A stretch of 64,000 bases of DNA from IMG/VR virus record IMGVR_UViG_3300031555_004037, one strand, 5' to 3'. This DNA comes from a virus. Lineage: Duplodnaviria; Heunggongvirae; Uroviricota; Caudoviricetes. The notes below the pieces were generated by a model. It was not told the origin of the DNA. It did no database searches and worked only from the letters and a program-made list of their open reading frames with translations. Below, piece after piece: positions 4,200 through 61,230 of the stretch. Within the stretch, counting starts at the first letter, position 1. Every line of letters starts with the position of its first letter. The translations under genes were made by a program, and so were the position numbers.

Positions 4200-4358
4200 A
4201 TGAGTATGGATGTTACAAATACAACACAGAACACAAAGGTAGACGATGATATGAAGGCTTTTCAGGCAGACCTTGCAAGAGAAGAATTTATGCACCGTGT
4301 AGAAACAGGGGCTTTAACTCCAGAGGAACAGGCAGACTGGGATGAAATGATGAGTTAA
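4200..4358 (+). CDS. small hypothetical protein (52 aa), absent from ORF track
   Basis: AAAGGAGAAAAAATTATG; acidic MSMDVTNTTQNTKVDDDMKAFQADLAREEFMHRVETGALTPEEQADWDEMMS; GC-richer codons than its surroundings. Confidence 0.35.
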   Translation: MSMDVTNTTQNTKVDDDMKAFQADLAREEFMHRVETGALTPEEQADWDEMMS

Positions 4359-4390
4359 ATTAAATCTGCCCCTAGAAAAGAGGTAGGACA

Positions 4391-5437
4391 ATGGCACAAT
4401 TTGATGCAACAAGCAATATCCCTGTAGAAAGACAGATTAAATTCCGTGCTACAGGAGATAGAATTTGGGATATGGATGAACTTCCATTAACAAGAGTTCA
4501 TAGTGGGGATATGGATAATGGAAATTTTGTTTCATTTTTAGAAACTAACCCTACTATTAAGAAACAAATGTTACAAAAATACTGTAAGTATAACTTTGAA
4601 AAAGTATTAGAACAGAAGATTTTTGGACAAGATGTTACTGACGATGAATTAAGAAATATAAGTTTTATGCTTACAATTTATGATGCTTGTATTACAGTTC
4701 TTCGTGGTGGTGGTATTCTTTGTAGTACCGATGAAATGTATTTTGCAGCACTTGTAAATTACAACTGTTCAAAGGGAACAAGCAAAAATCGTATTCGTTC
4801 TTATGCAGCCTTAATGGAAATTAAACAAAGTGAAATGGCAGCAGGAGATGGTTCATTAAATTATAGTGAATATTTAATTATGGGTACAAATGGAGATTTT
4901 GATAATGAATATGTATCAATTAAACTTCCTACCAATAATGCGTATTCTTCTGATATTATGCTTGAATTACCTATTATTAAGTGTAGATTTGGTAGATTTA
5001 GATTTGCTACCGAGCGTATTCCAGGTATGATGAGTTGGGCTGATGACCCAGATAAGACAAAATTAACAGTTCCCCCTCATATTTGGATGGAAATGATTAA
5101 AGAAGGTGTATCTAATAGACTTACTGCTAAATTCTTTAACGGAGAGGCAAAGAGTTTGGCTAAAATTGTTGATTTAGACACTAAATATGTTGATGAAGTT
5201 TGTGATATGAATGATTTTAGAGTTGCATTAGCATTTATTAACGCATATCAAATGGAAATCAATGACGATAATGAACTTGAACTTCATAACACAAATGAAT
5301 TGCCTGACATCAATAAAGTAAATTCATTAAAGTGGGTTGAAATTAGAGAAGGTTCAGGTAGATGGGCATTAGCATCAAACACATTCTATGTAGTTAAATT
5401 AATTGGTACAACTATTCAAGTTAGAATGTATCGTTAA
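4391..5437 (+). CDS. hypothetical protein, probably strongly expressed (isolated unit)
   Basis: 348 aa; strong RBS AAAGAGGTAGGACAATGG; followed by a 14-bp stem hairpin; function not recognisable. Confidence 0.5.
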   Translation: MAQFDATSNIPVERQIKFRATGDRIWDMDELPLTRVHSGDMDNGNFVSFLETNPTIKKQMLQKYCKYNFEKVLEQKIFGQDVTDDELRNISFMLTIYDACITVLRGGGILCSTDEMYFAALVNYNCSKGTSKNRIRSYAALMEIKQSEMAAGDGSLNYSEYLIMGTNGDFDNEYVSIKLPTNNAYSSDIMLELPIIKCRFGRFRFATERIPGMMSWADDPDKTKLTVPPHIWMEMIKEGVSNRLTAKFFNGEAKSLAKIVDLDTKYVDEVCDMNDFRVALAFINAYQMEINDDNELELHNTNELPDINKVNSLKWVEIREGSGRWALASNTFYVVKLIGTTIQVRMYR

Positions 5438-34708: not shown

Positions 34709-37700
34709 ATGAAAAGCAAAAGATTAAAAACTCGAATTTTGGCATTATTTTTAACTATGTTGCTTGTTACTAATTCTCCATTAGTTGCTATGGCTGAAAA
34801 TAATCCATCATTTGTAGAAGACGAAATAGTTACTACCGAAGAAACAACTACAGAAGAAGTAACTACGGAAGAGGTAACTACGGAAGAAATTATAACAGAA
34901 GAAGTAACAACAGAGGAAATCACAACGGAGGAAATCACAACAGAAGAAGTTGTAACCGAAGAGATTACGACAGAAGAAACAACTACAGAAGATGTAATAG
35001 AAGAAATACCTATTACATTTAATCTTAATAGAAATACTTTAGTTGAATATTGTGTTCCGTCTGAAGTAATAACTAAAATTGAATCTACTACATTTACACA
35101 TCAAACAACAGAATATAATAAATATGAATTGATTACAGATAATGCAGTAGATAATAACAATAATGTTTGGTATGTTTATTCTGTTAAGAGTGTTTTAGAC
35201 GATGAAGTAATAACTTTAGGTAATGTTATATTCCCTAAATCAGTTAAAATAGAAGATACCTTAATTATTCCTGCGTCTGTAACAGATTCCGAAACTTATT
35301 CAGTATATGGTGTAGGTAATAGTAGTTTTAAAGACGCAAATATAATTAACACATTAGAAATTGAATCTGGAATAAGGACTATTGAAGATTCAGCATTTGA
35401 AAATTGTGGTGTTTCAAACATAACATTATCAGATACAATTATATCTTTTGGTTCGTCAGTATTTGCTAATAATGATAATCTTACATCATTTACTTTTCCG
35501 ACAAATCCAGCATTTGTTGAAACAGGTTATAAAGTTTTATATGATTGTAATAATTTAACATCAATTACATTAGGAGAGAATATTAAAGTTATTTCAGCAG
35601 AATCATTCTATCAATGTAATAAATTGACTAATGTAGTCATTCCAGACGGTTTACAAGCAATATTATATAGAGCATTTGCAAAAACTGCTATAACAGAAAT
35701 CAATTTAAAGAATATAACTGGATTAGGTGCTCAATCATTTGAACATTGTTATAATCTTGAAACTATTGATTGGGGTGCTTGTTTATGGGGTGGAAAGATT
35801 GATTATAGAACTTTCTATATGTGTAATTCATTAAAAGAAATCAATATACCTGATAATGTTGAGGTTGTAGGAACTGACGCTTTTAATGGTTGTACATCTG
35901 TTACAAGCATTGACTTGAATAATGTTATTCAAATTGAATATTGTGGATTTGCTAATACAGGTATTACTGAATTGACAATTCCTGAATCCGTTAAATCAAT
36001 GGGTGCATTTTCATTTGGTAATACCACAAATCTTGAAACTGTAACATTTAAAAATGATATTAGAATTTATATTAGTGATGATTCAGCACCAAGTAAACAA
36101 TTATTTATAGTATTTGGTAAATTAACATATAATGAGCCTAGTGATACTTGGAATAATGACGGTGGTGCTTGGAAAAATGATGTTATTAAAAAAATAATAA
36201 TAGATAATGAAAATATTACAGATTGTACTTTTGTTCCAAATGGAATGTTTCAGTATATGGGAATTGAAGAGGTTATTCTTTCTGATAATATTTCCACATT
36301 AAATTATCAAGCATTTTTTGATTGTAAAAATTTAAAGACTATTAAAGCAAATAAATTAAATGCAATTCAAGATTCAGTATTTCAGAATTGTACTTCATTA
36401 GAAGAAATAAATCCAACTGACGATGTAAAAATTAACTTTCCAGATACACTTTATTGGATAGGTACTAATGCCTTTTTTAAGTGTAGTTCATTAGGAGATG
36501 TTACATTAGATAAAAACATTTTCCATATTGGTAATAGTGCTTTTTATAACTCTGGTATTACTAATCTTGTGATTGGTAATAATGTTACTGAAATCGGTTC
36601 TTCTGCATTTAAAGAATTAGTAAATTGTGAAAGCATATATATAGATGTTGAACCGTCTTTAGTAGAATATAGAGAATACGGAACAATGTTTTGGGGATGT
36701 ACTTCATTAGATACTTTAACTATTGGTAAAAATGTAACTACTCTTGAACCAAATTGTCTACAAAATATGGTCACAAAACATCTTATTTTTGAAGAGGGTA
36801 GCACAATTACTGAAATACCAAATCATTGTGTTTATGGAAATGCTAATCTTGAAAGTGTTGTTTTACCAGAAAATTTAATAACAATTAGTGAAGAGGCATT
36901 TCAAGCCTGTTATTCTTTAAAAAGTATTGAATTACCAAATACAATTACTACAATTAAAAGAAATGGTTTCTTTGGATGTCATTCACTTGAAACAATAACT
37001 GGTTTAGAGAATGTTGAGTATATTGGTAATCACGCTTTCTTTAACAATATAAATCTTAAAGAAGTATATATTGGGGAAAATGTTAATTATTTAGGTGCAG
37101 CATCATTCTTTAATACTTATTCACTTGAAAAAGTTACTATTGATAATAAGTATATGATTGATGAAACTACAGGAGAAACTATTTGTAAAACAAGTGAAAC
37201 TCAAACTGAACCACAAGTACAAAACTATCTTACTAGAGTATTTGGTAGAGATGATAGAAATTTTGACCATAATGGTTTAGCATCACATTTAAACTTTAAT
37301 AAAGAAAATTGTACACCACAACATTCATATTTTGAATTAATAATTACTGATAAAGTAGCACAATTACAAGATTATGAGTGTGAGGGTATGTATGTAAGTA
37401 AAGTTACTATTCAAGATAATGGAAAACTTACTGAAATTCCTTATATGTGTTTTAGTAATTGTGAATATTTAGAAACAGTTAATTTAGGTACAATAAATAA
37501 AATTGATAAATACGCATTTACTTGTTGTACAAGTCTAACTGAAATTGAATTACCAATGTCTGTAACTAATGTTGGAGAATATGCTTTTTCTGGTTGTGAT
37601 TCACTAGAAGAAATATATTTATGGAATCCTGATGTTAAAATAGAAAATTATGAGGGTAGTGAATTAAAACACGCTACTGAAATAGTAAATGGTGGTTCAA

Positions 37701-46911: not shown

Positions 46912-46958
46912 AAGAACTACAATATCTTTTTATAGATTATTGTAGTTCTTATTTTTTA
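46912..46958 (+). terminator. rho-independent terminator (13-bp perfect stem)
   Basis: AAGAACTACAATA...TATTGTAGTTCTT then ATTTTTT. Confidence 0.75.
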
Positions 46959-49352: not shown

Positions 49353-51833
49353 ATGTTAGATTTAATTGCAAAAAACAAAGAAATGTTAGATGCAAAAGCA
49401 TATAATATAGCAGACACTCGTTTAATGATGAGAATTGCAAGTCTTAAAACTATAAATGATTATGATTTGTATTTAATTGCGTGTTGTTTATGTAATTATG
49501 ATATTGAAGAAAAATCAGATGCAAGAGAACTTCGTATGGAATATTTCCTTAAAACTAATAATGGTTCTATTGTTGGATTTGAACACGGAGAATCTGATTA
49601 TGGTATTGTTGGAAAATCTGATATTAAATGTACTAATACAGGTAATGTAAATAAATTTGGTTTATATGAATATGAAATCAATGTAAATAATAAAGACCTA
49701 GTTTCTGATTTATGGGAAAAGAAACCAAAGGATTGTCTTAAATATGTGGATAACAAAACCTATGAAGATAAACTTATTGTTTCTATTAGTAAATCTCAAT
49801 TAGATAATTTTATGGCTATGTTAGATGAATTAGTTATTGATTATGAAATTTCAGATTTACAAAAGGGTTTAATTTATACAAATAAATCAGGTAATGAATT
49901 GATTGATATTTCTACCTTAGATTTACCTTTTGAACCATATCAATATCAAATAGAAGACGCTAAAAGATTAGTAAGTAAAAAAAGAGCATTACTAGGACAC
50001 GATATGGGCTGTGTATCAGGAAATAGTATAGTTCGTATTAAAGAAAGAGGAAAAAAAGCAACACGAGAAATAACCGTTTCTAATTTATTTAATTTGTTTG
50101 AAGAAGATAATACTATTCAAATTAAATGTTTAGTAAATGGAAGATTTGCTTATATGCCTATCAAAGCAGTAATTGATAAGGGTGTTCGTGATACTATTAG
50201 ATTAGTTACAAAAGATACTAGACTTGAATGTACTACTGACCACGAAATTTATACAGAAAAGGGTTGGGTAGAATCAAAAGATTTACAAGTTGGAGATTAT
50301 ATTGTTACAAATGAATTTGGAATTGATATACCTAATCATTTGATTAATTCGATTAAAAACAATATTGATGTTAATAAAACAATTAATGAAAACTGTGATT
50401 ATATATATACATCAAAAGTAGGTATTTCAGAAATTATTAGCATAGAAACTTGTGATACTCAACAAGTTTATGATATTGCTATTGACGATGTAGAAATTCA
50501 TAATTTTGTTTGTAATAATATTGTTGTTCATAATTGTGGAAAGACCTTAATTTCAATTTTAATTGGTCAAAGTTTAGATATGCCTAAATTAGTAATTTGT
50601 CCAGAGTCATTAAGATTAAATTGGTTAAGAGAAATTAAACAAGTTAAAAATGACGCAGATGTACAAATTTTATTAAGTAATGAAACACCTCATTTTGGAG
50701 AAGATTGGACAATAGTTGGTTATCAAACTGCAAGTAAATTTATTGATAATTTAATGAAATTTGAGTGTATCTTTGTAGATGAATGTCACAACTGTAAGGC
50801 TGTAAATAATTGGGGAAAACCGTCAAGTAAGAGAGCCGATGCAGTAATTACATTGGCAAATAATGCAGAGTATTGTTATTTATTATCTGGTACTCCAATG
50901 CCATCACATAATAAAGATTTATTCAATATTCTTAAAATGTTAAAATGTGAAGCATTTGATTTTAATAATAAATGGGCATTTAAGAATTATGCAGATAAAT
51001 ATTGTGACCCTAAAGAAACATATTTTGGTATGGACTATTCTGGTAATAGTAATTCAGATATGTTACACGGATTATTAAATAAACTAATGATACGAAGATT
51101 AAAGAAAGATGTATTACCACATTTAACAAAGCAAAGACAGTTTATTCCTATTGCACCAAAATTCAAAAAGGAATATATGGATATTGAAAAAAGATTATAT
51201 TTTCCTGAACCAGACGATACTTATATGGGATTGGCTATGACAGGAAGAAAATTATCTAGTCAATATAAAGTACAAACTGCTATTGAATTAGCAGAATCTT
51301 TAATTAATTCTGATGAAAGTGTAGTTATTGTTACAAACTTTATTGAAACAGCAGATATATTAAAAAATCATTTTAAAGATAAGGCTTGTGAAATTCGTGG
51401 TGGTATGAGTGATAAAGATAAGCAAAAAGCCATTGATGATTTTCAAAGTAAAAAGAAAACTGTATGTATATTAAATATGATGGCTGGTGGTGTTGGTATT
51501 ACTTTAACAGCAGCACATACAATGATAATGGTTGATTATGCTTGGTTGCCATCAGATATGACACAGGTAGAAGATAGAATTTGTCGTAGTGGTCAGACAG
51601 AGAATTGTATGATTTATTATATTTATTGTGAAAATTCTATTTTAGATAATATATTTATTGAGATGATTTCTGATAAATCAGCAAATATAGACGCAGTTGT
51701 AGATAATGTAGAAAACACATTTAATTTAAGTGAGGAAAAGTTAGCCAATTCAACTTATATTGATTTACTTAAATCAAAGATTAAAGAAACTAAACCAAAG
51801 GCAAAGCGTGGCAGAAAAAAGAAGACTGAATAA
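49353..51833 (+). CDS. SNF2/Rad54-family helicase with a mini-intein inside the Walker A motif
   Basis: Host motif DMG|CGKT split by the intein; DExH box VDECHNCK; motif VI QVEDRICRSGQT; remaining helicase motifs intact. Confidence 0.8.
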   Translation: MLDLIAKNKEMLDAKAYNIADTRLMMRIASLKTINDYDLYLIACCLCNYDIEEKSDARELRMEYFLKTNNGSIVGFEHGESDYGIVGKSDIKCTNTGNVNKFGLYEYEINVNNKDLVSDLWEKKPKDCLKYVDNKTYEDKLIVSISKSQLDNFMAMLDELVIDYEISDLQKGLIYTNKSGNELIDISTLDLPFEPYQYQIEDAKRLVSKKRALLGHDMGCVSGNSIVRIKERGKKATREITVSNLFNLFEEDNTIQIKCLVNGRFAYMPIKAVIDKGVRDTIRLVTKDTRLECTTDHEIYTEKGWVESKDLQVGDYIVTNEFGIDIPNHLINSIKNNIDVNKTINENCDYIYTSKVGISEIISIETCDTQQVYDIAIDDVEIHNFVCNNIVVHNCGKTLISILIGQSLDMPKLVICPESLRLNWLREIKQVKNDADVQILLSNETPHFGEDWTIVGYQTASKFIDNLMKFECIFVDECHNCKAVNNWGKPSSKRADAVITLANNAEYCYLLSGTPMPSHNKDLFNILKMLKCEAFDFNNKWAFKNYADKYCDPKETYFGMDYSGNSNSDMLHGLLNKLMIRRLKKDVLPHLTKQRQFIPIAPKFKKEYMDIEKRLYFPEPDDTYMGLAMTGRKLSSQYKVQTAIELAESLINSDESVVIVTNFIETADILKNHFKDKACEIRGGMSDKDKQKAIDDFQSKKKTVCILNMMAGGVGITLTAAHTMIMVDYAWLPSDMTQVEDRICRSGQTENCMIYYIYCENSILDNIFIEMISDKSANIDAVVDNVENTFNLSEEKLANSTYIDLLKSKIKETKPKAKRGRKKKTE
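50010..50534 (+). mobile_element. mini-intein (175 aa, no endonuclease domain) in the SNF2 helicase P-loop
   Basis: Begins CVSGNSIV, block B TTDHEIYT, ends VYDIAIDDVEIHNFVCNNIVVHN followed by +1 Cys (CGKT); excision would restore DMGCGKT. Confidence 0.75.
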
Positions 51834-52736: not shown

Positions 52737-53861
52737 GTGATTAAGGGAATTATTAAAATGATTATTGTTGCCTTAATATTTCTAGGATTATTATGGTTAG
52801 GCGGGTACTCATTTTCATCTTTTCAACATTCAATAGACCTTAAAAATCCAGGAGAGGTTTATGAGCCATTAATAGATGAATTACCCGATTTGCCTAATGT
52901 AGATGTTCCAGATTTACCAGATGTGGAAGACCCATTAGTATCAAATGATGATAATAATTCAGAAGTTGCATCTGATACAGATACAAATTTACCAAATGTA
53001 GATATTCCAGATATTAGTGATTATCCTACTGAATTAGAGCCAGTAGATGTAAATTTACCACAAGCAGGAAAAGGCGAGTTAAGTGAAATCGAATTATCTA
53101 CTACAAGAAATATTAAATTAACAATAAATGGACAATCAATAGAATTAACTTCTACAACTACTGCAAAATTTGTTAAATGGTTAGCAACAAATTATAATGA
53201 AGACGAAGAAGTTGAATTTGAAGAATTAGCACCTATTGATGAAGAAACAAGTAGTGAAGAAACTAAAAATCAAATAGAATATGAAACTGTATTAACCTCA
53301 AAAGAAGATTTAGATACAATAGTTGCTACAATAACAACTGTTGAAAAATTAGAAGAATTAGATGGTTATGATAGAAATGAATATGAAAAACCAGTACAAT
53401 CTTATGAATTAAATGGGGAAACATATAATAGAAATGATTATTCTTGGAAGAATAGTGAATTTTTAATTAGTGAAGAACCATTTGAATATATTTGTCCTTA
53501 TACAGGAGAAACAATTACTGATGAAAGTAAATTAGATTTTGACCATATTGTTCCTTTAAAATCTACATATTTAAGGGGTGCTGATAAATGGACACAAGAG
53601 CAGAAAAATGAATATGCTTATGACCAATCAATAGGTATAGATGTATTAAATTCTGCAAATAGAAGTAAATCAGATAAAGGTCCTACTGAATGGTTGCCTA
53701 CTGAAAATATAGAAGATTATTGTTATAGTTGGATATATATTTGTAGTAAATATAATTTAGTTATGACCGAAGAAGAATTAGAAATTTGTATGGATGAGAT
53801 AAATACAGCATTAAACAATGGAGAAACAATTCAATTATTAGGAATTGTAAATATACAATAA
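52737..53861 (+). CDS. membrane-anchored protein with C-terminal His-Me finger (DUF1524/HNH-like) nuclease domain
   Basis: N-terminal TM; acidic Pro-rich linker; LDFDHIVPLKSTY...NSANRSKSDKGPTEW matches the D-H-x-x-P ... N ... K-x-D-K pattern of DUF1524-type nucleases. Confidence 0.4.
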   Translation: MIKGIIKMIIVALIFLGLLWLGGYSFSSFQHSIDLKNPGEVYEPLIDELPDLPNVDVPDLPDVEDPLVSNDDNNSEVASDTDTNLPNVDIPDISDYPTELEPVDVNLPQAGKGELSEIELSTTRNIKLTINGQSIELTSTTTAKFVKWLATNYNEDEEVEFEELAPIDEETSSEETKNQIEYETVLTSKEDLDTIVATITTVEKLEELDGYDRNEYEKPVQSYELNGETYNRNDYSWKNSEFLISEEPFEYICPYTGETITDESKLDFDHIVPLKSTYLRGADKWTQEQKNEYAYDQSIGIDVLNSANRSKSDKGPTEWLPTENIEDYCYSWIYICSKYNLVMTEEELEICMDEINTALNNGETIQLLGIVNIQ

Positions 53862-54958: not shown

Positions 54959-56053
54959 ATGAACAAAGAACAGTATATTGAAGCGATTAAGCAGTTAAAT
55001 TATTACACAAAGAAATATGATGAAGGTAATCCAGAAATCTCTGATGAAGAGTGGGATAATTTATATTTCAGTTGTATTGAATTTGAAAATGAAACAGGTT
55101 ATATTGACGAAAATTCTCCGTCAGCAACAATTCAGTTTGATGTGGTAAATTCTTTAAAGAAAGTAACACATTCACATCCTATGTTATCATTGGATAAGAC
55201 CAAAGATGTTAAGGAAATTGAAAAGTTTGTAAAGAAGAGTCCTTGTATTGTTATGGCAAAAATGGACGGACTTACTTGTTCTTTAACATATAAGAATGGA
55301 AAGTTAGTTTCAGCAGAAACTAGAGGTAATGGTGTTGTAGGAGAAGATATTCTTCATAATGCAAAGACTATTAAATCTATTCCACAGACTATTGATTGTT
55401 TAGATGAAATTATTATTGACGGAGAAGTAATTTGTACTTATAAGGACTTTGAAGAGTTTTCTAATGAGTATAAAAATCCTAGAAACTTTGCATCTGGTTC
55501 AATTAGATTAATTGACCCTAATGAATGTGCAAAGCGTAAGTTGACTTTTGTTGCTTGGGATATTATTTCAACTGATGTAGATTTTACTGAAAAACTTTCA
55601 ATGCTTAACAAGTTTGGATTTGTTGTAGTACCTTATCAGGCTGTTGTTATGGATAATCTTGAAAAACAGCAGAAAGAAATGAAAGATTATTGTGCTACAA
55701 TGAGTTATCCTATTGACGGACTTGTGTATCGTATCAATGACCAAAAGGTATGGAATGAGCAGGGAAAAACAGAACATCATTTTTGTGGTTCATACGCATT
55801 TAAGTTCTATGACGAAATGTATGAAACCACTTTAATTGATATTGAATGGTCTGTTGGTAAAACTGGTTTAGTAACACCAGTAGCAATTTTTGAACCTGTT
55901 GAAATTGACGGTACAACAGTACAGAGAGCGTCACTTCATAATCTTACTATTATGGAAGAAGTTCTTGGCACACCTTATGTGGGTCAGAAGATTTGGGTAT
56001 TTAAAGCAAATATGATTATTCCACAGGTAGCAAAGGCAGAGAAAATTTCATAG
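54959..56053 (+). CDS. ligA: NAD-dependent DNA ligase, N-terminal fragment (adenylation + OB domains only)
   Basis: KxDG adenylation motif AKMDGLTCSL; OB-fold end NMIIPQV ~ LigA GDVIPQV; ORF stops exactly at the OB/Zn-finger junction. Confidence 0.8.
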   Translation: MNKEQYIEAIKQLNYYTKKYDEGNPEISDEEWDNLYFSCIEFENETGYIDENSPSATIQFDVVNSLKKVTHSHPMLSLDKTKDVKEIEKFVKKSPCIVMAKMDGLTCSLTYKNGKLVSAETRGNGVVGEDILHNAKTIKSIPQTIDCLDEIIIDGEVICTYKDFEEFSNEYKNPRNFASGSIRLIDPNECAKRKLTFVAWDIISTDVDFTEKLSMLNKFGFVVVPYQAVVMDNLEKQQKEMKDYCATMSYPIDGLVYRINDQKVWNEQGKTEHHFCGSYAFKFYDEMYETTLIDIEWSVGKTGLVTPVAIFEPVEIDGTTVQRASLHNLTIMEEVLGTPYVGQKIWVFKANMIIPQVAKAEKIS

Positions 56054-56059
56054 AAAGGA

Positions 56060-56395
56060 ATGGAAATTATGAAAATACATCCAACAAAACAGAAAGTAAT
56101 TGATAGTATTATAACTTTTATTAGTCAATATGATGAAATTACAAAGATGGTTATTTTTGGAGATGTATTAGAAGAGAATATTTCCGAAGATACTTTTATA
56201 GATATTGCAATCAAAACAATTACAGAAGAATTAGCATTAGATGATGAATTTGCTTATAATATTGTAAAAGAGATTGATGATATTACAGACGGAAAATTTA
56301 GTTTTATCATAATGAATGAACCTAATATTAGTTCTAATACAATGGAATTAATTGAAAGGGGAATTACTGTTTATGAAAAGGCAAAAGAAATCTGA
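56060..56395 (+). CDS. nucleotidyltransferase-fold (MNT-like) protein inside the ligase split
   Basis: MVIFGDVLEENISEDTFIDIAI resembles the Pol-beta NTase hG[GS]...D-h-D-h motif (degenerate). Confidence 0.35.
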   Translation: MEIMKIHPTKQKVIDSIITFISQYDEITKMVIFGDVLEENISEDTFIDIAIKTITEELALDDEFAYNIVKEIDDITDGKFSFIIMNEPNISSNTMELIERGITVYEKAKEI

Positions 56396-56849
56396 TTTAG
56401 AATTAAAAGAACAAGGACTACTTTTAATACGAAATGGGTTAAAGGCTTATGAAATTGGAGAGCCTTTACTTACAGATTATAATACTAAAGAAGAAAAAAC
56501 AAAAGCAGATAGTGCTAATAAAAATTGGGGTTGTTATATGACACAACAATCCATTGAATTAATTATAAAGGGTTTAATTAAGTATTATGGTTGGAATTTT
56601 AGAGATGGTCATTTTATTAGTGGTAATGCTAAAATTCTATCTGAATTATCAGAAAGAAATTCCATCTTACGACAATTAGATGATACCCTTTATACACTAC
56701 AATCTAAATTTAGTTATGTCTTATATAAATGGGCTACTATTGGTAGATATGTTGATTTATATGTTTATGCTAAAAATATTGAAACAGCATTAGAACTAAA
56801 TAAAGATTTATATGATTTTATTCATAGAAATCATTTATTAGATGAATAA
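56352..56849 (+). CDS. hypothetical protein overlapping the NTase-like gene (possible HEPN-like partner; start may be 56373)
   Basis: 23-44 nt overlap with upstream ORF; C-terminal FIHRNHLLDE; pairing by analogy to MNT/HEPN modules, weak. Confidence 0.3.
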   Translation: MKGELLFMKRQKKSDLELKEQGLLLIRNGLKAYEIGEPLLTDYNTKEEKTKADSANKNWGCYMTQQSIELIIKGLIKYYGWNFRDGHFISGNAKILSELSERNSILRQLDDTLYTLQSKFSYVLYKWATIGRYVDLYVYAKNIETALELNKDLYDFIHRNHLLDE

Positions 56850-56855
56850 AATTAT

Positions 56856-56883
56856 TTACAAATATTAGATAATGTGTTATAAT
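56856..56883 (+). promoter_or_regulatory. sigma-A-like promoter TTACAA -16- TGtTATAAT
   Basis: Identical architecture to the 54897 promoter; drives the ligase C-terminal gene. Confidence 0.5.
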
Positions 56884-56914
56884 AATTATAGTTAAGTGAA
56901 AGTGAGGAAATTAA

Positions 56915-57706
56915 ATGAATTTTTTAACCATTCCTAATGAATGTCCTATTTGTGGGGCAACATTGATTAGAGAGAAAAAGAATAAATCAGAAATGTTGAT
57001 TTGCCCTAATTCTAATTGTGGTTGTAAATTAGAGGGTAAATTATTAAATCTCTTTGGTACTAATGGATTAGATATTGAATCTATTTCAGTTAAAACTGTA
57101 AATAAGTTAATTGAATTAGGTTGGCTTACAAAAATGAGTGATGTATTTAGTCTTAAAAATCATAGAGATGAATGGATTAATATTGACGGTTTTGGAGAAA
57201 ACTCCGTTGATAAAATTCTTGAAGCACTTCCAACATCCATTGAATTATGGAGAGCAATCGCAATTTCTGGAATTTCAGGAATTGAAAAGGCAACTGCAAA
57301 AGTAATTGCAAAGGAATTTAAGGATTGGAAAGATTTTAGAAATGCCATTGATACTAATTATGATTTCACTAGAATTTCTGGAATTGGTACTGTAACTGCT
57401 AATTCAATTTTAGAATTTGATTATACTGAAATTGATGATGTTATGTGCTATTTAACTATAAAAGAAGAAGTTGTTGGTGGAAAATTAGATAATCAATCAT
57501 TCTGTATTACAGGTAAGTTATCTATGAAGAGAGATGACCTTGTAAAAATTATTGAACAGAATGGTGGAAAATTTGCATCTGTCAATAAGAATTTAACATA
57601 TCTTATCTGTAATGATAAGGACTCAAATTCTGGTAAGTCTAAAAAAGCAAAGGATTTAGGAGTTACTGTTATTACCGAAGATGAGTTTATGGACTTAATT
57701 AAATAA
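56915..57706 (+). CDS. ligA: NAD-dependent DNA ligase, C-terminal fragment (Zn finger, HhH, BRCT)
   Basis: Starts at Zn finger CPICGATL...CPNSNCGC; HhH region; BRCT FCITGKLSMKRDDLVKIIEQNGGKFASVNKNLTYLICND. Confidence 0.75.
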   Translation: MNFLTIPNECPICGATLIREKKNKSEMLICPNSNCGCKLEGKLLNLFGTNGLDIESISVKTVNKLIELGWLTKMSDVFSLKNHRDEWINIDGFGENSVDKILEALPTSIELWRAIAISGISGIEKATAKVIAKEFKDWKDFRNAIDTNYDFTRISGIGTVTANSILEFDYTEIDDVMCYLTIKEEVVGGKLDNQSFCITGKLSMKRDDLVKIIEQNGGKFASVNKNLTYLICNDKDSNSGKSKKAKDLGVTVITEDEFMDLIK

Positions 57707-59495: not shown

Positions 59496-60698
59496 ATGAA
59501 AATGCTTACTATATATTATTATAGTAAGCATTACTATTTAGAAAGGAAATTTTTTAATATGGCTATTAAATTAAACTTAAATGAGAAAAAAGAAGAAAAA
59601 GTAAATAATAATGAAGATATTAAATCTTTATATAGACAAAATATGTCTATTGACGATTTACTTATTTTTACTACTGAACATAATTGTTCTGACTTATATA
59701 TTAAAGTTTTTGAACAGCCTTATATTTCTCGTTATGGTAAAATCATAAAAGTTCCTTGTCAACCTATTACAAAAGATACTTGGGCTAAATTTTATGATTC
59801 GTATATATTAAACGAGTTAAATGCAGGTTATGTTAGACAAAAATTATTAGATACCTCTGTTTCTATTAGAGTTCCAGAAGATAGTCCTAATTATGGTAAA
59901 TATCTAAATAATTGCTATCGTTATAGAGTTTCTTTTGGTTTTTCAGAAGAAAGAAATATTGCTACTTTCCGTATGATTAAACCAGAAATGCCTACTTTCG
60001 ATACTATTAATTATAATCAAACTTGTGTTGAAGCACTTAAAGTGGCTTATGCAAAACCGTCTGGAATTATTTATACTACTGGACCTACTGGTTCTGGTAA
60101 ATCAACTACTATGGCTGCTTGTATAAATACTTTTACTCAACCATCTAATATTCTTGATAATAAAGTATTGATTACACTAGAAGACCCTATTGAAAATGTA
60201 TTTGAATGTACTGATAGTGTTAAAATCAATCAAAAAGAATTAGGTAAGGATTTTATTTCTTTTGATATGGGTATTAAAGCAAGTTTGCGTGAACACCCTA
60301 ATATGATTATTGTTGGTGAGTGTAGAGATAAAGAGGTTATTTGTGCTGCTATTGAGGCTGCTCGTACAGGACATATATGTTCTACAACTTTCCACGCATC
60401 TGATGTTGGTGGTACTATTAACCGTTTATTATATCATTTAGATAATGATAGAAATTTATCTATGGACTTAATTTTACAGTTGAATATTGTATTATCACAG
60501 AAAATGATTAAACAAGATAATGGATATTTAGTAGATACTCAATTTTTATTATTTGATGATGAAGTAACTAAAAGATTAGTTGAAATTATTGAATTGCCTG
60601 ATGCAAATATTGCAGTTGAAATCAATAAATTAATTGCTGACGAAAGATTACAAGCAAAAGGTGTAGTTAAAGATTGGGATTATAAAGAGTTACATTAA
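59496..60698 (+). CDS. PilT/VirB11/GspE-family secretion (type IV pilus-type) ATPase
   Basis: Walker A TTGPTGSGKSTT; Asp box ITLEDPIE; Walker B MIIVGECRD; His box GHICSTTFHASD. Confidence 0.75.
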   Translation: MKMLTIYYYSKHYYLERKFFNMAIKLNLNEKKEEKVNNNEDIKSLYRQNMSIDDLLIFTTEHNCSDLYIKVFEQPYISRYGKIIKVPCQPITKDTWAKFYDSYILNELNAGYVRQKLLDTSVSIRVPEDSPNYGKYLNNCYRYRVSFGFSEERNIATFRMIKPEMPTFDTINYNQTCVEALKVAYAKPSGIIYTTGPTGSGKSTTMAACINTFTQPSNILDNKVLITLEDPIENVFECTDSVKINQKELGKDFISFDMGIKASLREHPNMIIVGECRDKEVICAAIEAARTGHICSTTFHASDVGGTINRLLYHLDNDRNLSMDLILQLNIVLSQKMIKQDNGYLVDTQFLLFDDEVTKRLVEIIELPDANIAVEINKLIADERLQAKGVVKDWDYKELH

Positions 60699-60717
60699 TA
60701 TTAAGGAGATTTATATA

Positions 60718-61230
60718 ATGATATTAATTTTAATTGGAAATTTATTTTCATTTTTAGGTAGTATATGTAGTTTTTTATCAACTAAAGTCAAAACATATAA
60801 AATGACTTTAATAATTCAATCTTTAGATGCAACATTTTTTGCATTATCTTCAATATGTTTAAAGGGCTATAGTGGAATAATTGTAAATTGTGTAGCAATA
60901 GCAAGAAATCTTAGTTGTGCGTTTTTTAACTTAAACAAATATACTAAAATTGTATTTATAGGTTTAACTGTTATATTAGGCTTAATATTTATGGATAAAA
61001 CAATTTATGGATTTCTTCCAATAATTGCAAGTTCTTATTATGCTTTTGTTATGTTAAATACTAATGACGTATATAAGTTGAAAAAAGCATTAATGATAAA
61101 TAATTTATTATGGTTAATATACTCTATAATTATATTAGATGTTGTGGGCACAATATTTAAAATATTATCTATTATATCGTGTATTAAATATATTTCAAAA
61201 AAGGAGAAAATAGAAGATGTCAACAAGTAA
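60718..61230 (+). CDS. polytopic membrane protein (5-6 TM)
   Basis: 170 aa, mostly hydrophobic helices; immediately downstream of the ATPase. Confidence 0.5.
   Translation: MILILIGNLFSFLGSICSFLSTKVKTYKMTLIIQSLDATFFALSSICLKGYSGIIVNCVAIARNLSCAFFNLNKYTKIVFIGLTVILGLIFMDKTIYGFLPIIASSYYAFVMLNTNDVYKLKKALMINNLLWLIYSIIILDVVGTIFKILSIISCIKYISKKEKIEDVNK

What the first reader, a model, noticed from the sequence alone, without database searches (positions are those of the whole stretch)
49353..51833. Mini-intein interrupting the Walker A (P-loop) of an SNF2-family helicase
A 175-aa insertion at 50010-50534 starts with Cys (CVSGNS), carries a TTDHEIYT block B, and ends VVHN followed by Cys. Removing it restores the helicase motif DMGCGKT. 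No homing-endonuclease domain is present, so it is a mini-intein. Insertion in a catalytic P-loop is typical of intein targeting of conserved sites.
Basis: partly seen in the sequence, partly recalled or inferred. Interest (0 to 1): 0.6.

Follow-up and report, generated by a model that had tools for sequence, protein, structure and literature searches.

The report
Mini-intein in a phage helicase P-loop

Summary
ORF 49353-51833 (+) encodes an 826-aa SNF2-family helicase. Nucleotides 50010-50534 encode a 175-aa insert that splits Walker A (..GHDMG | CGKT..).

The insert has every sequence hallmark of a class 1 intein: Cys1, Thr75/His78 (block B), Asp155/His164 (block F), His174-Asn175 (block G) and Cys+1. 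It passes Pfam Intein_splicing (47.2 bits, cutoff 35.8). Its predicted structure matches only solved inteins at the top of a PDB search.

A related phage contig that is 98.7% identical in the flanks lacks exactly these 525 nt and reads DMGCGKT. Another relative carries the same intein plus an HNH_3 endonuclease. Further relatives carry 138-144-aa minimal versions, a partly deleted HNH version, or a second intein lineage at the same site.

Intein similarity does not track helicase similarity, which points to horizontal transfer. The helicase evolves under strong purifying selection (dN/dS 0.01 between two intein-bearing alleles), which implies that the intein splices. Splicing itself was not tested.

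SNF2 helicases and P-loops are published intein hot-spots. The closest relatives of this intein sit at the same site in many other SNF2 helicases.

Verdict: real, correctly interpreted, a new member of a known kind, of modest interest.

The parts
49353..51833 (+). Precursor ORF: SNF2-family helicase with intein (826 aa, 94.5 kDa; the spliced product is predicted to be 651 aa, 74.6 kDa)
   Evidence: ORF list and translation. Pfam SNF2-rel_dom 59.6 bits, Helicase_C 60.2 bits, Intein_splicing 47.2 bits. Masses. The protein is identical to P0122, which occurs on JGI/IMG contigs up to 323,839 bp.
49353..50009 (+). N-extein (219 aa); ends ..KRALLGHDMG, the first half of Walker A / helicase motif I
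   Evidence: It is 98.9% identical in nucleotides to the same part of the intein-free allele L001.
50010..50534 (+). Class 1 mini-intein, 175 aa (19.9 kDa), CVSGNS...NIVVHN
   Evidence: AF2 model: mean pLDDT 78.7, pTM 0.74. Foldseek against PDB: the first 37 ranked matches are all inteins, with target-normalised TM-score up to 0.87. It is an exact 525-nt indel relative to L001.
50010..50048 (+). Intein block A, including the Cys1 nucleophile (TGT at 50010-50012)
   Evidence: Cys1 and Gly4 are invariant in the alignment of 10 related inteins.
50220..50267 (+). Intein block B, RLECTTDHEIYTEKGW; Thr75 (B:7, 50232-50234) and His78 (B:10, 50241-50243)
   Evidence: Thr75, Asp77 and His78 are invariant in alignment A2. 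The block aligns to block B of the Spl DnaX and Mtu RecA inteins.
50314..50429 (+). Internal linker at the endonuclease-insertion point. These 116 nt stand in place of 461 nt that encode an HNH_3 domain in relative L003/P0002. Intein residues 104-135 (50319-50414) are predicted with pLDDT below 50.
   Evidence: blastn breakpoints, Pfam HNH_3 43.3 bits in the P0002 intein, pLDDT profile. Similarity of the linker to the tail of the HNH insert is not significant (p about 0.09 by shuffling).
50463..50516 (+). Intein block F, QVYDIAIDDVEIHNFVCN; Asp155 (F:4, 50472-50474) and His164 (F:13, 50499-50501)
   Evidence: aligns to block F of the Spl DnaX intein.
50517..50534 (+). Intein block G, NIVVHN; penultimate His174 and terminal Asn175 (50532-50534)
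   Evidence: His174, Asn175 and Cys+1 are invariant in A2.
50535..51833 (+). C-extein (432 aa plus stop). It starts with the Cys+1 nucleophile (TGT 50535-50537) in CGKT, the second half of Walker A. It also contains the DECH box (50778-50789), LSGTP, and motif VI QVEDRICRSGQ (51564-51596).
   Evidence: It is 98.6% identical in nucleotides to L001. Alignment to SNF2/Rad54 1Z63.

Best explanation
Nucleotides 50010-50534 encode a class 1 mini-intein inserted between Gly219 and Cys395 of the Walker A motif (DMG|CGKT) of a jumbo-phage SNF2-family helicase.

Inferred mechanism. The gene is translated as a 94.5-kDa precursor whose ATP-binding loop is interrupted, so the precursor should be inactive. 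The intein folds into a HINT domain and removes itself in four steps. (1) An N-S acyl shift at Cys1, assisted by Thr75 and His78. (2) Trans-thioesterification to Cys+1, assisted by Asp155. (3) Cyclisation of Asn175, assisted by His174 and His164. (4) An S-N shift that joins Gly219 to Cys395. The products are a 74.6-kDa helicase with an intact DMGCGKT P-loop and a free 19.9-kDa intein.

Mobility. This copy has no homing endonuclease, so it cannot home by itself. It belongs to an intein lineage whose commonest form carries an HNH_3 endonuclease at the linker position. It is most likely a derivative that lost that domain, now inherited vertically or moved by recombination between co-infecting phages.

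What is shown and what is inferred. Shown: the anatomy, the fold prediction, empty and HNH-bearing alleles at the same site, incongruence between intein and helicase similarity, and purifying selection on the helicase. Inferred: the splicing chemistry, that this copy splices, and the direction of HNH loss.
For: Sequence:
- Pfam Intein_splicing is above its gathering score.
- NCBIfam matches intein-bearing DnaB, RtcB and RecA models in the intein parts.
- PDB sequence hits are all inteins.
- Residues Cys1, Thr75, His78, Asp155, His164, His174, Asn175 and Cys+1 are all present, with the canonical B:7-B:10 and F:4-F:13 spacing. These are the residues the review PMC4031507 names for class 1.

Fold:
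- AF2 gives pLDDT at or above 90 for 85 residues.
- The first 37 ranked Foldseek PDB matches are all inteins, including NrdJ-1, Ssp and Npu DnaB, Mtu RecA and VidaL, with E down to 1e-9 and target-normalised TM up to 0.87.

Comparative genomics:
- L001 and P0004 have flanks 98.7% identical and lack exactly 525 nt; the site reads GGC|TGTGGAAAGACC, i.e. DMG|CGKT.
- About 97 of 120 homologues are intein-free and about 23 carry an intein at the same site.
- The intein-free allele gives a contiguous SNF2-rel_dom match of 72 bits.

Mobility:
- P0002/L003 carries the same intein (N-terminal splicing part 96% identical in nucleotides) plus HNH_3.
- P0114 is a partial-deletion derivative of the P0117 form.
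- Helicases only 38-59% identical to this one carry inteins 64-70% identical, while closer helicases (62-75%) carry inteins 46-49% or 26-29% identical.
- Among the 150 best intein relatives in 1.84 billion representative proteins, 64 end in HN|CGK[TS]. For 53 of these the start junction was also recognisable and a length could be measured; most of them are 236-296 aa. All 8 sampled are SNF2 helicases and 7 of the 8 carry HNH_3.

Function retained:
- Extein dN/dS is 0.01 between two intein-bearing alleles (window versus L004, dS 0.108), against 0.4-0.8 for most intein comparisons (one C-terminal pair, from only four substitutions, gave 0.07).
- None of the substitutions among the four near-identical intein variants hits a catalytic residue.
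Against: No experiment shows splicing.

The intein splicing domain evolves under weak constraint (dN/dS mostly about 0.4-0.8, from small counts). That pattern would also fit slow decay.

The AF2 model rests on only 10 sequences, the other four models are less confident (57-69), and the linker is unmodelled.

NCBIfam intein_Nterm (TIGR01445) scores 18.5 bits, below its cutoff of 24.5.

The direction of change (HNH lost rather than gained) is not proven. Linker-to-HNH similarity is not significant.
Confidence: 0.93

Rival explanations
1. It is a decaying, splicing-defective intein, and the helicase gene in this phage is effectively a pseudogene or makes a dead protein.
For: Intein dN/dS is high, mostly 0.4-0.8. 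The endonuclease is gone and a low-confidence linker remains. Degenerate intein genes are documented, for example Arsp-FB24 Arth_1007 (PMC3196547, listed).
Against: All catalytic residues are intact and are not touched by any of the substitutions in the four close variants. The reading frame is open. The exteins of two intein-bearing alleles differ at 37 synonymous sites but only 2 non-synonymous sites (dN/dS 0.01), which would not be expected if the P-loop stayed permanently disrupted.
Confidence: 0.05
2. It is a non-splicing HINT or bacterial intein-like (BIL) domain, or a native lineage-specific domain insertion, that stays in the mature helicase.
For: A weak Pfam PT-HINT match (16.1 bits, below its cutoff of 27.7). 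BIL and Hedgehog HINT domains appear lower in the fold-search list (ranks 38-50).
Against: The segment splits GxGKT, which cannot bind ATP with 175 residues in the loop. It has the +1 Cys and terminal His-Asn needed for ligation. It is absent from about 80% of close homologues, including one with flanks 98.7% identical in nucleotides. The best fold and sequence matches are true inteins.
Confidence: 0.01
3. The insertion is removed at the RNA level (a group I or II intron), not at the protein level.
For: Phage genes often carry self-splicing introns at conserved sites, for example the jumbo-phage cases cited in PMC7824862.
Against: The insert is in frame, has no stops, and encodes a confidently predicted HINT fold. 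No Rfam family, including intron families, reaches its gathering score anywhere in the window.
Confidence: 0.01

Closest known systems
Class 1 mini-inteins with solved structures (Spl DnaX 7CFV, Mtu RecA delta-I 2IN0/3IFJ, Npu/Ssp DnaB 4O1R/1MI8, NrdJ-1 8UBS)
   Same: The HINT fold is shared (target-normalised TM 0.79-0.87). So are Cys1, the block B TxxH, the block F Asp and His, the terminal His-Asn and a +1 nucleophile. None has an endonuclease. Like this one, they sit in a replication or repair protein.
   Different: Sequence identity is only 17-24%, and the host protein differs (SNF2 helicase versus DnaX, RecA, DnaB, NrdJ). This intein keeps a linker of about 32 aa, predicted with low confidence, at the endonuclease-insertion point.
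HNH_3-containing inteins at the same Walker A site of SNF2 helicases (P0002, P0012, P0116, P0117, P0124-P0164; metagenomic, unnamed)
   Same: They share the insertion point (D-x-x-G | C-G-K-T/S) and belong to the same intein lineage, with splicing domains 52-89% identical.
   Different: They carry an HNH_3 endonuclease insert of about 115-150 aa, giving a total of about 290 aa. The window copy has 116 nt of unrelated or unrecognisable linker instead.
SNF2/HepA inteins catalogued in bacteria (Novikova et al. 2016, PMC4760082) and the Deinococcus radiodurans Snf2 class 3 intein
   Same: The host family is the same. HepA/SNF2 is among the top 15 intein-bearing bacterial proteins, and P-loop insertion is described as recurrent. 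Class-3-like LAGLIDADG inteins do occur in the same Walker A of distant phage SNF2 helicases (L011, L017, L067).
   Different: The class-3-like inteins sit three residues downstream (GK|T). They lack a residue-1 nucleophile, have Cys at F:4 and Thr at G:5, and carry LAGLIDADG domains. The window intein has Cys1, Asp at F:4 and Val at G:5, so it is class 1. That the Dra Snf2 intein is class 3 rests on the titles and reviews found and on my own knowledge. Its exact insertion site was not checked here.
DnaB-b, MCM-a and RFC-a P-loop inteins
   Same: The target is analogous: the ATP-binding P-loop of a replication-associated ATPase (PMC4760082).
   Different: The ATPase superfamilies differ (RecA-like SF4 and AAA+ versus SF2), and the intein lineages are unrelated.

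Membership tests
Intein, class 1 (canonical four-step splicing) | HINT (Hedgehog/intein) fold of the splicing domain | tested here: met
   Pfam PF14890 47.2 bits against a cutoff of 35.8. AF2 model with pLDDT 78.7. The first 37 ranked Foldseek PDB matches are all inteins, E down to 1.2e-9, target-normalised TM up to 0.87.
Intein, class 1 (canonical four-step splicing) | Cys or Ser at intein position 1 | tested here: met
   Cys1, TGT at 50010-50012; invariant in 10 related inteins.
Intein, class 1 (canonical four-step splicing) | Block B Thr(B:7)-x-x-His(B:10) | tested here: met
   Thr75 and His78 in ECTTDHEIY; invariant in A2; role as described in PMC4031507.
Intein, class 1 (canonical four-step splicing) | Block F Asp at F:4 (and commonly His at F:13) | tested here: met
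   Asp155 and His164 in VYDIAIDDVEIHNF, nine residues apart as F:4 to F:13 requires; aligned to block F of the Spl DnaX intein.
Intein, class 1 (canonical four-step splicing) | Block G penultimate His and C-terminal Asn | tested here: met
   His174-Asn175 (VVHN); invariant in A2.
Intein, class 1 (canonical four-step splicing) | Cys, Ser or Thr as first residue of the C-extein | tested here: met
   Cys395 (TGT at 50535-50537).
Intein, class 1 (canonical four-step splicing) | In-frame insertion in a conserved host protein, absent from orthologues, whose removal restores a conserved motif | tested here: met
   Exact 525-nt indel against L001, with flanks 98.7% identical. About 97 of 120 homologues are empty at the site. 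Removal restores DMGCGKT, which aligns with DDMGLGKT of 1Z63.
Intein, class 1 (canonical four-step splicing) | Demonstrated protein splicing (excision plus extein ligation) | not testable with these tools
   Only indirect evidence: extein dN/dS of 0.01 between two intein-bearing alleles.
Mini-intein | No homing-endonuclease domain between blocks B and F; contiguous splicing domain | tested here: met
   No endonuclease family found by Pfam or NCBIfam in residues 220-394. About 50 residues lie between the end of block B (Trp86) and the first C-terminal strand (Val137), including a segment of about 32 residues with pLDDT below 50. P0002, with HNH_3, is 115 aa longer. Definition as in PMC7765530 and PMC4031507.
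Class 3 intein (Dra Snf2 / MP-Be DnaB type) | No residue-1 nucleophile; Cys at F:4 as obligate branch point; Thr at G:5 | tested here: not met
   The window intein has Cys1, Asp155 at F:4 and Val at G:5. Class-3-like features are seen only in other loci (L011, L017, L067) at the neighbouring GK|T site.
Bacterial intein-like (BIL) domain | HINT domain in variable, non-conserved proteins, usually without a +1 nucleophile and without seamless ligation | tested here: not met
   The host is a conserved helicase and the site is the catalytic P-loop. A +1 Cys is present. BIL structures rank below true inteins (ranks 39, 43, 47 and 50).
SNF2 family (SF2) helicase (host protein) | SNF2-related N-lobe and Helicase_C lobe with motifs I (GxGKT), II (DExH), III and VI | tested here: met
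   SNF2-rel_dom 59.6 bits (72 bits in the intein-free allele) and Helicase_C 60.2 bits, both above cutoffs. DMG..CGKT, DECH, LSGTP and QVEDRICRSGQ are present. The best PDB sequence match is the Sulfolobus SNF2/Rad54 helicase 1Z63 at 2.7e-20.

The most novel reading that the evidence does not exclude
The intein might not be a mere passenger. It could act as a conditional (for example redox- or zinc-sensitive) post-translational switch that holds the phage SNF2 helicase inactive until the right moment in infection. It would use the Cys1/Cys+1 pair and four further cysteines (intein positions 40, 74, 129, 148 and 168 include these). The retained linker of about 32 aa would then be a regulatory element, not debris. 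A related possibility concerns the P-loop Cys found in most intein-free alleles (DMGCGKT instead of the canonical DMGLGKT). It may be a footprint of repeated cycles of intein gain and loss, which would make this jumbo-phage clade a natural time-series of the intein homing cycle.
Probability: 0.1. Interest if true: 0.55.

Novelty: new member of a known kind. Interest (0 to 1): 0.27.

Why it matters
For annotation, the gene should be recorded as an intein-containing SNF2 helicase with a 651-aa mature product, not as an 826-aa protein with an odd domain.

For intein biology, this clade of uncultivated jumbo phages (contigs up to about 530 kb) offers a compact natural series at a single site. The series includes empty alleles, HNH-bearing full inteins, a partly deleted HNH form, linker-retaining minis, minimal minis and a second intein lineage. 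A class-3-like LAGLIDADG intein sits three residues away in more distant helicases. That makes a good data set for studying the homing cycle and the choice of P-loops as targets.

For tool-building, it is one more small Cys1/Cys+1 intein with natural extein context G|CGK. None of this changes current understanding of inteins.

Tried and rejected
- **DNA search for known relatives.** blastn ('distant') of the gene against 50,697 GenBank phage records gave no match. By tblastn the helicase is at most 29% identical to any deposited phage, and the intein at most 24% (PaV-LD DnaB intein). No named relative could be used.
- **IMG/VR scan with the single protein.** It found nothing. The scan with the alignment did work.
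- **Is the linker a recognisable remnant of the HNH domain?** Local alignment with 2000 shuffles gave p about 0.09 against the P0002 insert and p about 0.02 against the P0003 linker. This is not significant, so the claim 'HNH remnant' is left as an inference from the family pattern only.
- **Co-conversion tract.** Window-versus-L005 identity is higher around the intein (0.87-0.97) than at the gene ends (0.70-0.86). The same region holds the conserved helicase motifs, so this is not used as evidence.
- **Other inteins in the window.** An HMM built from 15 related inteins, run with all filters off on the six-frame translation, finds only this one.
- **RNA-level explanations.** There are no Rfam hits and no tRNAs in the window.
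- **Class 3, BIL and split-intein readings.** All were rejected on residue criteria.
- **Mis-scripted steps.** A first MAFFT DNA alignment of the two intein versions mis-placed the deletion, so the blastn breakpoints were used instead. A first regular-expression screen for inteins in the IMG/VR loci missed the class-3-like ones, which were then found by reading the ORFs.
Full report
**Observation**

The window is AT-rich (27.2% G+C) and reads as one long block of + strand genes. ORF 49353-51833 (+) is intact and encodes 826 aa. It begins CVSGNS, contains ECTTDHEIYT, and ends NIVVHN followed by Cys395. Deleting it joins ..ALLGHDMG to CGKTLISIL.. and leaves 651 aa. The coordinates, residues and restored motif are all as described.

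**Is it an intein?**

Three independent lines say yes.

- **Sequence.** Pfam Intein_splicing scores 47.2 bits (E 2.7e-12, cutoff 35.8), alongside SNF2-rel_dom and Helicase_C. NCBIfam matches come from the intein portions of intein-bearing DnaB, RtcB, RecA, IF-2, RNR and GyrA models, although the short TIGR01445 N-terminal model stays below its cutoff. phmmer against all PDB sequences returns only inteins, led by the Spl DnaX mini-intein at 4e-10 and Mtu RecA mini-inteins at about 1e-5, with blocks B, F and G aligned.
- **Residues.** In intein numbering these are Cys1, Thr75 and His78 (B:7 and B:10), Asp155 and His164 (F:4 and F:13), His174 and Asn175 (G:6 and G:7), and Cys+1. This is the set that the review PMC4031507 gives for class 1 inteins. 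Cys1, Thr75, His78, His174, Asn175 and Cys+1 are invariant in an alignment of ten related inteins.
- **Fold.** An AlphaFold2 model built on that alignment has mean pLDDT 78.7 and pTM 0.74, with 85 residues at or above 90. The first 37 ranked matches in a Foldseek search of the PDB are all inteins, including NrdJ-1, Ssp and Npu DnaB, Mtu RecA and VidaL. E-values reach 1e-9 and target-normalised TM-scores reach 0.87. Hedgehog and BIL HINT domains appear only below them. Only residues 104-135 are unmodelled (pLDDT below 50).

**Comparative evidence**

A search of 5.8 billion proteins found 241 homologues. Among the best 120, about 97 have no insert and are 636-678 aa long, close to the 651 aa predicted for the spliced product. 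About 23 carry an intein at the same point.

The most telling case is P0004 on a 317-kb contig (L001). Its flanks are 98.7% identical to the window at the nucleotide level. The only structural difference in the gene is the clean absence of 525 nt, so the site reads GGC|TGTGGAAAGACC, i.e. DMG|CGKT. The exteins differ at 25 of 1956 nt and 3 of 651 aa. The intein-free protein gives a contiguous SNF2-rel_dom hit of 72 bits. Its Walker A aligns with DDMGLGKT of the Sulfolobus SNF2/Rad54 helicase 1Z63.

**Mobility and history**

- **Same intein with an endonuclease.** P0002 (L003) has the same intein, 96% identical in nucleotides over the first 304 nt. It has 461 nt encoding an HNH_3 endonuclease (43.3 bits) where the window has 116 nt, at 50314-50429.
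- **Other forms at the same site.** Relatives show minimal inteins of 138-144 aa, linker-bearing ones of 174-182 aa, and a 188-aa form (P0114) that is a clear internal deletion of the 290-aa P0117 form. A second, distantly related intein lineage (CF[AT]G[ND]T..., 26-29% identical) also occupies the same site.
- **Incongruent similarity.** The most distant helicases (P0114, P0116 and P0117; exteins 38-59% identical) carry inteins 64-70% identical to this one. Closer helicases (62-75%) carry inteins 46-49% identical. That is the signature of horizontal transfer.
- **Wider distribution.** A full HMMER scan of 1.84 billion representative proteins with the intein found 1271 relatives at E up to 1e-3. 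Of the best 150, 64 end in HN|CGK[TS]. For 53 of these the start junction was also recognisable and a length could be measured; most of them are 236-296 aa. All 8 sampled are SNF2 helicases and 7 of the 8 have HNH_3.

So this lineage is a widespread HNH-bearing parasite of the SNF2 P-loop, and the window copy is a minority form without the endonuclease. The likeliest history is loss of HNH, as in the standard homing-cycle model (PMC7765530). I could not show that the linker is an HNH remnant, because the similarity is not significant.

**Does it still splice?**

This cannot be tested here, but the indirect evidence is good. The window and L004 both carry the 175-aa intein. Their exteins differ at 37 synonymous and only 2 non-synonymous sites (dN/dS 0.01, dS 0.108). 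A helicase whose P-loop stayed permanently interrupted would not be conserved like that. Most intein comparisons give dN/dS of 0.4-0.8, though from small counts; the exception is one C-terminal pair that gave 0.07 from four substitutions. That is typical of a selfish element constrained only at its catalytic core. None of the substitutions among four near-identical variants touches a catalytic residue.

**Mechanism (inferred from the class 1 paradigm, PMC4031507)**

The 94.5-kDa precursor undergoes four steps: an N-S acyl shift at Gly219-Cys1, trans-thioesterification to Cys+1, Asn175 cyclisation, and an S-N shift. The products are a 74.6-kDa helicase and a 19.9-kDa intein.

**Context**

The window belongs to an uncultivated jumbo phage. 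The protein is identical to P0122, seen on JGI/IMG contigs up to 323,839 bp. Neighbouring genes encode both topoisomerase II subunits, an RNA-polymerase-beta-like protein, a UvrD-like helicase, a clamp-loader-like ATPase and a 1727-aa protein with Ig-like domains. No deposited phage is close: there is no blastn hit, and the best tblastn identity is at most 29%. This is the only intein in the window. There are no Rfam families and no tRNAs, which also excludes an annotated intron type as an explanation.

**Comparison with what is known**

SNF2/HepA helicases are among the 15 most frequent intein hosts in bacteria. P-loop insertion is a documented recurrent theme, seen at DnaB-b, MCM-a and RFC-a (PMC4760082). 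Inteins in essential jumbo-phage genes are also noted in the literature (PMC7824862).

The Deinococcus Snf2 intein is the textbook class 3 example (titles). Class-3-like LAGLIDADG inteins do occur in distant phage SNF2 helicases, three residues downstream at GK|T (L011, L017 and L067). The window intein fails the class 3 criteria and meets the class 1 criteria.

**Verdict**

The finding is real and correctly interpreted. It is a new member of a known kind: a new intein allele or lineage, seen so far only in metagenomes, at a known type of site in a known host family.

Interest is modest. The most useful by-product is the natural series of alleles at one site, covering the stages of the homing cycle. 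An unexcluded but unsupported possibility is that the intein acts as a conditional switch on the helicase.

Noticed in passing
L007 2986-6505 (IMGVR_UViG_3300001486_000563): A 68%-identical helicase homologue carries a mini-intein at the same MG|CGKT site and is broken again about 14 residues after Walker A. ORF1 ends with a tail (..NYDDIVITDKGPLPIGKIVEENIDCKV..) that, from my memory of the Npu DnaE sequence and not from any alignment run here, looks like the start of a DnaE-type intein N-fragment, but it lacks block B. A free-standing ORF follows (4301-5215, C2H2 zinc finger plus DUF7487). The rest of the helicase restarts as a separate ORF at 5216. This could be a 'fractured gene' or split-intein-like arrangement, or a disrupted second intein.
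   Followed up: partly
L011, L017, L067 (IMG/VR loci); empty counterpart L024: Distant phage SNF2 helicases (about 30% identical) carry large LAGLIDADG inteins of about 370 aa in the same Walker A but three residues downstream (DDMGxGK | T). They have no Cys or Ser at position 1 (Ala, Glu or Phe), have Cys at F:4 and end in T-H-N | T. These are class-3-like features. L024 shows the uninterrupted DDMGLGKTTSAV.
   Followed up: partly
P-loop position 395 of the window protein; homologues P0004-P0120: Most intein-free close homologues have Cys at the +1 position (DMGCGKT, at least 76 of about 97). The canonical SNF2 motif, and a minority of homologues, have Leu, Ala, Val, Ser or Thr there. This could be a footprint of past intein occupancy or a predisposition to invasion.
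   Followed up: partly
P0019, P0020, P0021, P0024, P0042 (homologues): A second, distantly related mini-intein lineage (138-141 aa, CF[AT]G[ND]T...VVHN, 26-29% identical to the window intein) occupies exactly the same site. It has Cys instead of Asp at block F position 4 while keeping Cys1.
   Followed up: no
window 54959-57706 (+): The NAD-dependent DNA ligase appears to be split. An adenylation plus OB-fold ORF (54959-56053) and a BRCT ORF (56915-57706) are separated by a HEPN-domain ORF (56352-56849), with a small Polbeta/nucleotidyltransferase ORF next to it in relatives. Domain marks come from the syntenic genes in L001, L003 and L004. L004 has an extra 327-aa ORF in this gap.
   Followed up: no
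window 52737-53861 (+): A 374-aa protein has an N-terminal hydrophobic segment, an acidic repeat-rich middle, and a C-terminal DFDHIVP...NSANRSKSDKGP motif that by eye resembles His-Me/HNH (DUF1524-like) nucleases. It is also present next to the intein-free allele, so it is not linked to the intein.
   Followed up: no
window 46652-46914 versus L001 5722-7562; window 60698-61210 versus L001 20815-20825: Apart from the intein, the window and the 98%-identical contig L001 differ by several gene-sized indels or replacements in the flanking regions. This indicates mosaic gene content between closely related jumbo phages.
   Followed up: no
window 34709-39892 (+): A 1727-aa protein has Ig-like (Big_2) domains and matches PHROGs for structural and tail proteins. 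The syntenic gene in L004 carries LRR_5 and Flg_new marks. It is probably a large surface or adhesion protein of the virion.
   Followed up: no
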